A DNA stretch of 22,187 bases, taken from the NCBI RefSeq assembly GCF_003334255.1, contig NZ_QOWU01000067.1, one strand, 5' to 3'. Source of the stretch: Escherichia coli. GTDB lineage: Bacteria > Pseudomonadota > Gammaproteobacteria > Enterobacterales > Enterobacteriaceae. Of the stretch, positions 15,787 to 17,238 are shown in pieces (within the stretch, counting starts at the first letter, position 1; the number at the start of each line of letters is the position of its first letter). A program made the translations under genes and the position numbers. The notes beneath the pieces were generated by a model. That model worked only from the letters and a program-made list of their open reading frames with translations. It made no database searches and was not told the origin of the DNA.

Positions 15787-16798
15787 CGTTTTCCCTTATA
15801 ATTACAGACGCGCACTAGCTGTGCTGGGTTAGCAATAATCCAACATTTTTATCCTGATTATGTTTATAAAAGCGAACGTTTGCTTAATAACTAACGTAAG
15901 TGGACCAGTTCTTCTGAGTGAACTTAAATGGAGTAGCAACAGTTAATTATAATAACGTTGCCATACAAACGCTATGCTCTTGCATGCTATGTACCTTTAT
16001 ATATTTATCAATCGGGTACGAATCTAATAATAACCCTCATCATTAATGCAACTAATCTTATCTATATATCATGTGATATGTTCTGTAACAAGTAAAATCA
16101 ACATAAAAAATTCAGCAAAATTTAATATTCGTTCAACTAGCCGTCTCACATATGACATTATTAGTCAACTGCATTTGCCACAAAATGGCTATTTCACGGA
16201 ACGCAGTAATTTCTTAGTGGCTATTATCATGCTAATTCTTAGATCCCTAGCGATTATTCCTGCCTGGTTCGTCAGCTTAGGCCATGAGATTGTTACATTC
16301 CTGTTTATCCTGGAGATATGGGGGAACGCAGGCGACGCTTTTTCATCTACATCCGTTGGTAACTATGGCTTTGGTCACTACGACTTAAACCTTCCTCAAT
16401 CACAGCTATTCGCCGGGCGATACGGCAAACAAACTAAGTGAAACATCATCCTGAAAACACCAACATCAACAAGCCTCTCCAGATCGACTTCAGAAGTGAC
16501 CAGTTACAAGCCACAAACCAGGAAACATATTTCATGATGAGAATTATGCTCAGCCTGATGGCGGGTAAACACTGATTTTCACCAAGCTCACTGAGTTAGC
16601 TTGCAAAGCTTCCTTGTTTAGACTCTAAATAAATTATTTATATAACAAATAGTTAAACGAAGATCTTTAGTTTTTGAAGACCACCGCAAGTGTTCGTCTG
16701 GCTTCACATGGCATCTTCCTCTTAGAAAAAGATCGACATATTTTGTGACACGAATTGCAAATCTGGTTTTGTTGTATGGATTGCGTGATTTTTGATCT

Positions 16799-16821
16799 GG
16801 TATAACAGGTATAAAGGTGCA
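16799..16821. promoter_or_regulatory. NanR operator (GGTATA repeats) in the nanC / fimB upstream region
   Basis: GGTATA-aca-GGTATA-aa-GGTGCA: two perfect GGTATA hexamers and a degenerate third with the same 3-bp and 2-bp spacing as the canonical (GGTATA)3 NanR operator; about 420 bp upstream of nanC. Confidence 0.65.
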
Positions 16822-17238
16822 CCAAGATAGTCAATGAGACTGGGCATCTCGTAATCTATGGCAAACATCACTTCAGTTCTTTCTCATCGGGTGATGAAAA
16901 CGCACTTCAGTCTGAAAGGAATATGAAAATGAGATCAACAGACACTCTATTTTATGACTCCGGGTAAAATGGATTGAGTAAGTGATATAGCTTACGAACA
17001 TTCAAATCAATTAAACATCAGAATAGATTTTATACTCAGGTATTTAATCTGGCTCTCTGTTTATTTAAATAATGTGGAAAGAGACTTTTCACAGGAGACA
17101 TTATACAAAAAAAATAAAATACAGCTACCGGTTGCCAAAGACACTATAAGCCTGGCAAAAAAATATTACACAACATAAATGCTAATTGTTTATGCGGGCT
17201 TTGTATTGCTTTCTGTATCCTACAAATGAGTGAAATTT

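What the first reader, a model, noticed from the sequence alone, without database searches (positions are those of the whole stretch)
15787..17238. Long AT-rich fimB-nanC intergenic region with a NanR (GGTATA)-repeat operator
About 1.45 kb separates the divergent fimB and nanC. At 16799-16821 there are two perfect GGTATA hexamers and a degenerate third with exactly the spacing of the canonical NanR operator. In E. coli this region is known to couple sialic acid and GlcNAc sensing (NanR, NagC) to both nanC expression and fimB-driven OFF-to-ON switching from a long distance. The third hexamer is GGTGCA rather than GGTATA, which might affect NanR affinity. NagC sites are expected but I could not place them confidently.
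Basis: partly seen in the sequence, partly recalled or inferred. Interest (0 to 1): 0.4.

Follow-up and report, generated by a model that had tools for sequence, protein, structure and literature searches.

The report
Known NanR operator between fimB and nanC
This is the already well-studied E. coli control region where the sialic-acid repressor NanR and the GlcNAc sensor NagC bind between the fimB and nanC genes; the sequence here is letter-for-letter the same at those sites as in the laboratory strain K-12, so it is ordinary.

Summary
The window is E. coli (100% identical to O39:NM strain F8704-2). fimB (15184-15786, -) and nanC (17239-17955, +) are divergent and 1452 bp apart, in DNA of 35-40% G+C. 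GGTATA-ACA-GGTATA-AA-GGTGCA lies at 16799-16821.

It is the known operator O_NR. This 23-mer and about 90 bp around it are identical in K-12. They sit about 754 bp upstream of the fimB start inferred from published SlyA-site numbering (published: "around 760").

The "degenerate" third hexamer GGTGCA is not strain-specific. K-12 has it, and at least 4746 of about 5021 complete E. coli genomes carrying the region hold the exact GATC+operator 30-mer. Only 9 genomes have GGTACA. Published data show two GGTATA repeats already give full NanR affinity.

- O_NC1: 16737-16759
- O_NC2: 16526-16548 (both exact matches to published K-12 sites, 211 bp apart)
- candidate IHF site: 16643-16655
- Dam GATC sites: 16731 and 16794

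The O_NC1-to-O_NR block is the most conserved part of the intergenic region against a divergent Escherichia lineage.

Verdict: already known, low interest. Placing the nanC promoter on the operator is my inference.

The parts
15184..15786 (-). fimB coding sequence (type 1 fimbria switch recombinase)
   Evidence: PGAP annotation of the 100% identical record NZ_CP050998.1. A 200-aa ORF is listed.
16056..16091 (-). fimB promoter, inferred: -35 TTGTTA at 16086-16091, a 17-nt spacer, -10 TATATA at 16063-16068, start near 16056 (5' leader about 270 nt)
   Evidence: The start position is back-calculated from published coordinates: O_SA1 at -179..-168 and O_SA2 at -194..-183 (PMC3173223). The hexamers were read from the sequence. 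Inference only; not mapped in this strain.
16224..16250 (-). SlyA operators O_SA1 (16224-16235, TTAGCATGATAA) and O_SA2 (16239-16250, here CTAGGGATCTAA; K-12 has CTAGGGACCTAA)
   Evidence: Sequences are given in PMC3173223 and located. The SNP at 16243 is seen.
16526..16548 (+). NagC operator O_NC2 (CATATTTCATGATGAGAATTATG)
   Evidence: Exact reverse-complement match to the published K-12 site 'fimB2' (PMC3098098 Table 1). It is the top hit in the whole window of a NagC matrix trained only on 8 non-fim sites: 19.4 bits, above the maximum of all 200 shuffles.
16643..16655 (+). Candidate IHF site TAACAAATAGTTA, preceded by an A/T tract. It lies at the midpoint between the two NagC sites.
   Evidence: One mismatch to WATCAANNNNTTR. 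The midpoint of the site centres 16537 and 16748 is 16642.5. That IHF binds midway between the NagC sites is recalled from Sohanpal et al. 2007, which I could not read. This is the least conserved part of the region.
16731..16734 (.). Dam GATC site next to O_NC1
   Evidence: That NagC protects this site from methylation is recalled from the Sohanpal et al. 2004 abstract (not held in the library).
16737..16759 (+). NagC operator O_NC1 (CATATTTTGTGACACGAATTGCA). It overlaps a CRP-like site TGTGACACGAATTGCA at 16744-16759.
   Evidence: Exact reverse-complement match to the published K-12 site 'fimB1'. It is the second-best NagC matrix hit in the window at 11.5 bits, which is not significant on its own. 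The CRP-like match has 2 mismatches and such matches are at chance frequency in the window. Its case rests on the same register in nanA and nanX.
16794..16797 (.). Dam GATC site 1 bp upstream of the NanR operator
   Evidence: The same TTGATCT prefix precedes the nanA and nanX operators. NanR binds within 5 bp of these GATC sites (PMC5155068).
16799..16821 (+). NanR operator O_NR: GGTATA-ACA-GGTATA-AA-GGTGCA
16801..16813 (+). Inferred nanC promoter core: -10 TATAAC at 16801-16806 and start near 16813. This puts the CRP-like site at about -61.5 and gives a leader of about 425 nt.
   Evidence: Inference from paralogy with the nanA promoter, where the operator ends 35 nt before the ATG. Published statements say the operator overlaps the RNA-polymerase site (PMC8012715) and lies upstream of the putative starts of nanCMS and yjhBC (PMC3658417). 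Not mapped here. The consensus scan found no canonical promoter at this position.
17239..17955 (+). nanC coding sequence (N-acetylneuraminate outer-membrane channel), first gene of nanCMS
   Evidence: PGAP annotation.

Best explanation
Window 16799-16821 is O_NR, the characterised NanR operator of the E. coli fimB-nanC intergenic region. It is part of a compact sugar-sensing module with NagC site O_NC1 (16737-16759), NagC site O_NC2 (16526-16548) and probably an IHF site between them.

Without sialic acid, NanR dimers bind cooperatively to the tandem GGTATA repeats. This does two things. It represses the adjacent nanCMS promoter, which I infer overlaps the operator. It also raises fimB transcription from about 750 bp away, acting with NagC bound and looped over its two sites.

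Neu5Ac releases NanR, and its breakdown product GlcNAc-6-P releases NagC. nanCMS is then induced, fimB expression falls, and OFF-to-ON switching of type 1 fimbriae drops.

Shown here: identity of all three operators with the K-12 sites, their positions, and their exceptional conservation. Taken from the literature: the binding and the regulatory outcomes. Inferred: the nanC promoter position, the IHF site, and that this strain behaves like K-12. How the distant activation of fimB works is unresolved, as far as I recall the literature.
For: - The region is 97.6% identical to K-12, and the operator with about 90 bp of flank is 100% identical.
- The operator shares 20 of 23 bases, and the preceding TTGATCT, with the K-12 nanA and nanX operators.
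- The tandem hexamers appear in 0 of 100 shuffles.
- Both published NagC sites are found exactly.
- An independent NagC matrix ranks the two sites first and second in 22 kb.
- Positions relative to the inferred fimB start are -754 (O_NR), -692 (O_NC1) and -481 (O_NC2). Published: 'around 760 and 470 bp'.
- Against a lineage that is 85% identical overall over window 16300-17300 (E69), window 16733-16807 is 98-100% identical. That is the highest value in the part of the spacer that E69 covers (16308-17238).
- The 23-mer is invariant in 8 diverse E. coli. The GATC+operator+CC 30-mer is exact in 4746 genomes.
- SELEX places NanR binding in this spacer.
Against: - No binding or expression data exist for this strain.
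- The third hexamer matches GGTATA at only 4 of 6 positions, so occupancy by a third dimer is uncertain.
- The nanC start site was not available to me, and the consensus scan finds no canonical sigma-70 promoter at the operator.
- A promoter-like match nearer nanC, at 17088-17115, exists.
- The IHF stretch is the most variable part of the region and carries three SNPs relative to K-12.
- O_NC1 is not significant by matrix score alone.
Confidence: 0.93

Rival explanations
1. The operator works only locally, as the nanCMS repressor site. In this strain the long-range activation of fimB is weak or absent, because the intervening DNA (IHF stretch, SlyA O_SA2, the 16255-16370 SNP/indel cluster) differs from K-12.
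For: - SNPs and indels relative to K-12 cluster at 16611-16660, around the IHF candidate, and at 16197-16370.
- The 16243 G-to-A change lies in O_SA2, and mutation of O_SA2 strongly lowers fimB expression in K-12.
- The fimB effect has been shown only in K-12.
Against: - All three operators are unchanged.
- The SNP inside the IHF core falls on the degenerate W position, so the match is not worsened.
- As I recall from Sohanpal et al. 2007, DNA downstream of O_NC2 is not needed for NanR/NagC activation. Separately, SlyA acts independently of NanR and NagC.
- The O_SA2 position that changed is already a mismatch to the SlyA consensus in K-12.
Confidence: 0.1
2. The hexamer run is a chance AT-rich repeat, or a passive relic of the duplication that also produced the nanX upstream region, and has no present function.
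For: - Single GGTATA hexamers are at chance frequency.
- The nanC and nanX upstream regions are clearly paralogous over about 350 bp, so the shared sequence could reflect common descent.
Against: - 0 of 100 shuffles give the tandem arrangement.
- The block is the most conserved part of the spacer across lineages: 98-100% where the surroundings are 35-85%.
- It is invariant across thousands of genomes.
- NanR binding in this spacer is published.
Confidence: 0.01
3. The operator together with its adjacent GATC is mainly an epigenetic device. Dam methylation at 16794 and NanR binding exclude each other, giving heritable ON and OFF states of nanC/fimB control rather than simple graded repression.
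For: - GATC sits 1 bp from the operator here, and at the K-12 nanA and nanX operators and many (not all) nanA-type operators of other genera.
- Methylation at these sites changes over time, and nanC expression is 3-5 fold lower in a dam mutant at 72 h (PMC5155068).
Against: - It has not been shown that methylation blocks NanR binding; the authors themselves state this.
- Several genera keep the operator but lose the GATC, with GGTCT, GTTCT or GAGCT variants instead. The GATC is therefore not essential to the operator.
Confidence: 0.1

Closest known systems
O_NR, the NanR operator of the E. coli K-12 fimB-nanC (yjhA) intergenic region (El-Labany 2003; Sohanpal 2004, 2007; Condemine 2005; Kalivoda 2013)
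   Same: Identical 23-bp sequence, identical flanks including the GATC, and the same position relative to fimB, nanC, O_NC1 and O_NC2.
   Different: Nothing differs at the operator. The surrounding spacer differs from K-12 at 2.4% of positions, including an O_SA2 SNP and changes around the IHF candidate.
The (GGTATA)3 operators of nanATEK-yhcH and nanXY (yjhBC) in E. coli K-12
   Same: The same TTGATCT prefix, first two hexamers and ACA/AA spacers, and a CRP-like site 46-47 bp upstream of the operator. The nanX upstream region is paralogous with the nanC one for about 350 bp and has a similar distance of about 415 nt from operator to ATG.
   Different: The third hexamer is GGTGCA instead of GGTATA. 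The site here also serves a second, divergent gene (fimB) at long range and is flanked by NagC sites. In nanA the operator lies 35 nt from the ATG; here it lies 417 nt away.
nanA-type NanR operators in other Enterobacterales (Kluyvera, Citrobacter, Raoultella, Leclercia, Silvania and others)
   Same: The first two hexamers and spacers are the same, which the search pattern itself required. The third hexamer is variable: GGTACA or GGTCTA occur naturally. The third repeat is thus the tolerant one.
   Different: Those sites sit in the nanA context. Apart from two short contigs that look like E. coli DNA filed under other names (L015, L028), the nanC/fimB sequence context was found only in Escherichia: E. 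coli and the divergent 'E69' lineage, which has GGTACA.

Membership tests
NanR (GntR-type) GGTATA-repeat operator | At least two GGTATA hexamers in tandem, separated by 2-3 nt | tested here: met
   GGTATA-ACA-GGTATA at 16799-16813. One match in the window and 0 of 100 shuffles. [quoted passage not shown]
NanR (GntR-type) GGTATA-repeat operator | A third GGTATA repeat 2 nt after the second (canonical (GGTATA)3) | tested here: inconclusive
   The third hexamer is GGTGCA (4 of 6) at the right spacing. K-12's accepted nanC operator has the same sequence. Natural nanA operators carry GGTACA or GGTCTA in that position. Whether a third dimer binds cannot be tested here.
NanR (GntR-type) GGTATA-repeat operator | Located upstream of a sialic-acid (sialoregulon) operon | tested here: met
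   nanC-nanM-nanS follow on the + strand.
NanR (GntR-type) GGTATA-repeat operator | NanR protein binds the site, and Neu5Ac weakens the binding | not testable with these tools
   Published for the identical K-12 sequence and spacer. No data exist for this strain.
K-12 fimB distal activation module (O_NR + O_NC1 + IHF + O_NC2) | O_NR, O_NC1 and O_NC2 present with K-12 sequence and spacing, about 760-470 bp upstream of the fimB start | tested here: met
   Exact matches. The two NagC sites are 211 bp apart start to start. Positions are -754, -692 and -481 from the inferred start at 16056.
K-12 fimB distal activation module (O_NR + O_NC1 + IHF + O_NC2) | IHF site midway between the two NagC sites | tested here: inconclusive
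   A one-mismatch consensus match at 16643-16655 lies at the midpoint. I could not obtain the published footprint, and this stretch is the most variable part of the spacer.
K-12 fimB distal activation module (O_NR + O_NC1 + IHF + O_NC2) | Dam GATC sites adjacent to the NanR and NagC operators | tested here: met
   GATC at 16794 (1 bp from O_NR) and at 16731 (2 bp from O_NC1).
K-12 fimB distal activation module (O_NR + O_NC1 + IHF + O_NC2) | nanR or nagC loss, or Neu5Ac or GlcNAc addition, lowers fimB expression and OFF-to-ON switching | not testable with these tools
   Reported for K-12 only.

The most novel reading that the evidence does not exclude
Partial copies of the distal operators flank the fimB start. 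TATAAAGGTaCA lies on the fimB strand at 15990-16001 (+55 to +66), and an O_NC2-like 17-mer lies at 16030-16046 (+10 to +26). These could be weak secondary NanR and NagC sites that let the distal complex loop onto the fimB promoter. That would give a mechanism for the long-range activation, which as far as I recall remains unexplained.
Probability: 0.04. Interest if true: 0.5.

Novelty: already known. Interest (0 to 1): 0.08.

Why it matters
The region links host inflammation signals (free sialic acid and GlcNAc) to type 1 fimbrial phase variation and to sialic-acid uptake. It is therefore relevant to colonisation and urinary-tract pathogenesis. All of this has been established for K-12.

This analysis adds only the following:
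- The module is intact and unchanged in this O39:NM strain.
- The GGTGCA third hexamer is the species-wide state rather than a lesion.
- A coordinate map of the known sites in this window.

Tried and rejected
- **Structured RNA.** Rfam found nothing, either at gathering thresholds on the whole window or at E<=1 on 15700-17300. The inferred 438-nt nanC leader folds no better than shuffles, z = -0.67. The idea of a structured leader RNA was dropped.
- **Upstream ORF in the leader.** A 14-codon ORF at 16924-16968 has 4 non-synonymous and 1 synonymous changes against E69, read. It is not treated as coding.
- **Partial operator copy near the fimB start** (I3). A match of 11 or more of 12 bases arises in 17 of 200 shuffles, so it is treated as chance.
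- **CpxR consensus.** GTAAA-N5-GTAAA with up to 1 mismatch gave no match.
- **CRP consensus.** With up to 2 mismatches, matches are at chance frequency. The CRP-like site is kept only as an inference from its shared register in the three NanR-controlled promoters.
- **Promoter scan.** The sigma-70 scan gave 3 hits against 5.4 expected, none at the operator.
- **Primary papers.** Sohanpal 2004, Kalivoda 2003 and 2013 and Condemine 2005 were requested and are not held in the library; Sohanpal 2007 I did not request. The mapped nanC start site and the IHF footprint could therefore not be checked.

Full report
**Source and gene context.** The 1452-bp query 15787-17238 is 100% identical to E. coli O39:NM strain F8704-2. 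It is found at 95-99% identity in almost all complete E. coli genomes: 5021 of 5426 hold at least 80% of it. In the identical record, PGAP annotates fimB at window 15184-15786 (-) and nanC at 17239-17955 (+), followed by nanM and nanS. Its G+C is 0.35-0.40, lower than most of the neighbouring coding DNA.

**The observation.** The sequence at 16799-16821 reads GGTATA ACA GGTATA AA GGTGCA. GGTATA-N(2-3)-GGTATA occurs once in the window and in none of 100 dinucleotide-preserving shuffles. Single GGTATA hexamers are at chance level. The K-12 nanA operator reads ttGATCtGGTATAACAGGTATAAAGGTATA, and the nanX/yjhB operator is the same. The spacers and the first 20 bases, together with the preceding TTGATCT, are thus shared.

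**Identity with the characterised K-12 site.** A pairwise alignment with K-12 MG1655 shows the whole spacer colinear at 97.6%. Window 16662-16840 is without a single difference. GGTGCA is therefore the K-12 wild-type third hexamer.

The published numbering of the SlyA operators fixes the fimB start. O_SA1 (TTAGCATGATAA) is at -179..-168 and O_SA2 at -194..-183 (PMC3173223). This places the start at window 16056, where a TTGTTA-17-TATATA promoter can be read on the minus strand. From that start the operator centre is at -754. [quoted passage not shown] Genomic SELEX independently places NanR in the nanC/fimB spacer.

**NagC and IHF.** Table 1 of PMC3098098 lists the K-12 sites fimB1 (TGCAATTCGTGTCACAAAATATG) and fimB2 (CATAATTCTCATCATGAAATATG). 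Their reverse complements occur exactly once each, at 16737-16759 and 16526-16548. The repeat finder reports them as a direct repeat 211 bp apart; I recall 212 bp from Sohanpal et al. 2007.

I trained a NagC matrix only on the eight non-fim sites of that table. It ranks 16526-16548 first in the whole window, at 19.4 bits and above the maximum of all 200 shuffles. It ranks 16737-16759 second, at 11.5 bits, which is not significant on its own.

A one-mismatch IHF consensus match (TAACAAATAGTTA, 16643-16655), preceded by an A/T tract, lies at the midpoint of the two NagC sites. I treat it as a candidate only. GATC sites lie at 16731 and 16794, next to O_NC1 and O_NR. This fits the published link between NanR binding and Dam sites and what I recall of the Sohanpal 2004 abstract.

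**Conservation.** In eight diverse E. coli the 23-mer is invariant, and variation starts 3 bp after it. The 30-mer made of GATC, the operator and CC is exact in 4746 complete genomes. That is about 94.5% of the genomes that carry the spacer. A GGTACA allele in the same fimB-nanC context occurs in 9 genomes, including the K-12 laboratory strain OV2.

A scan of one genome per species for GGTATAACAGGTATAAAGGTNNA gave 65 loci. Nearly all are nanA-type operators in other Enterobacterales, with GGTATA, GGTACA or GGTCTA as the third hexamer. Two short contigs filed under other names (L015, L028) carry the E. coli nanC and nanX contexts and look like E. coli DNA. The nanC/fimB sequence context otherwise appeared only in Escherichia.

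The divergent "E69" lineage is 85% identical over window 16300-17300. Against it, window 16733-16807 (O_NC1 through the first hexamers) is 98-100% identical, the peak of the part of the spacer that E69 covers (16308-17238). O_NC2 differs by a single base, while the stretch between the NagC sites falls to 43-55%. This is the footprint expected of functional operators.

**Mechanism.** Published structural and biophysical work shows that NanR dimers bind the repeats cooperatively and that Neu5Ac weakens binding. One repeat binds poorly. Two repeats give a KD of 25 nM, similar to 20-39 nM for three, but form only two complexes (PMC8012715). The degenerate third hexamer is therefore more likely to change how many dimers are bound than the affinity.

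I infer that the nanC promoter overlaps the operator, for these reasons:
- In nanA the operator ends 35 nt before the ATG, so the promoter must overlap it or lie upstream of it.
- The same DNA, from a CRP-like site 46-47 bp upstream through the operator, is present in nanA, nanX and nanC.
- With TATAAC (16801-16806) as the -10 element and a start near 16813, the CRP-like site falls at about -61.5.
- O_NC1 overlaps that CRP-like site. This would explain the modulation by GlcNAc and activation by cAMP-CRP that I recall from Condemine et al. 2005.

This step is inference only. The consensus scan found no canonical promoter there and did find a weak match at 17088-17115. How the distal complex activates fimB is, as far as I recall the literature, unresolved.

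**What I looked for beyond the known.**
- There is no Rfam match.
- The inferred 438-nt nanC leader folds no better than shuffles, z = -0.67.
- The small upstream ORF in the leader shows no sign of selection at the protein level.
- The partial operator copy near the fimB start arises in 8.5% of shuffles.

**Verdict.** The finding is real and correctly interpreted, and it corresponds to a textbook-level, experimentally characterised element. It is already known and of low interest.

Noticed in passing
window 16243 (within 16239-16250): A G-to-A SNP relative to K-12 changes the SlyA operator O_SA2 from CTAGGGACCTAA to CTAGGGATCTAA. It also creates a new Dam GATC site at 16242-16245. Of 8 E. coli compared, only strain L37 shares it. 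Mutating O_SA2 strongly lowers fimB expression in K-12 (PMC3173223).
   Followed up: partly
window 16046-16441 (+): A 131-aa ORF lies inside the fimB promoter, SlyA and H-NS region. It is intact here and in strain L37, where PGAP calls it hypothetical protein WP_001360089.1. Indels break it in K-12. The sequence looks like a translated AT-rich spacer, so it is probably not a gene.
   Followed up: partly
window 19146-20126 (+): nanS is an intact 326-codon ORF, identical to K-12 NanS at 325 of 326 residues. PGAP nevertheless labels it a partial pseudogene (19209-19712) in this strain, and does the same in a re-annotated K-12 assembly. This appears to be an annotation artefact.
   Followed up: partly
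window 16700-17250 compared with K-12 nanX upstream (L004 3530-4070): The nanC and nanX (yjhB) upstream regions are paralogous for about 350 bp. The shared stretch runs from the CRP-like site through the operator into the leader. Both have about 415 nt between operator and start codon. The nanC leader is also 84-90% conserved against the divergent E69 lineage, more than the fimB-side spacer.
   Followed up: partly
window 15990-16001 and 16030-16046: Short partial copies of the second half of the NanR operator (TATAAAGGTaCA, minus strand) and of O_NC2 lie just downstream of the inferred fimB start. The NanR-operator copy is not significant: a comparable match arises in 17 of 200 shuffles. For the O_NC2-like copy I only checked that it does not score among the top 15 hits of the NagC matrix.
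   Followed up: yes
L076 and L077 (E. coli OV2 and 90-3040), position equivalent to window 16819: A rare allele of the nanC/fimB operator with GGTACA as the third hexamer is present in 9 of 5426 complete genomes. One is a K-12 laboratory strain. The divergent E69 lineage has the same allele.
   Followed up: partly
L071 (E. coli CUVET20-416), equivalent to window about 15787-16048: In this strain an IS1 element is annotated next to the break, where its sequence stops aligning with fimB and its promoter, up to about window 16048. The NanR/NagC module and nanC are left intact. About 80 genomes show the same coverage of only the nanC-proximal 82% of the spacer.
   Followed up: no
window 10739-22110: The window is colinear with K-12 MG1655 in a single 98.4% alignment that runs across fimS. 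The fim switch is therefore in the same orientation as in the MG1655 reference. I did not determine whether that orientation is ON or OFF.
   Followed up: no
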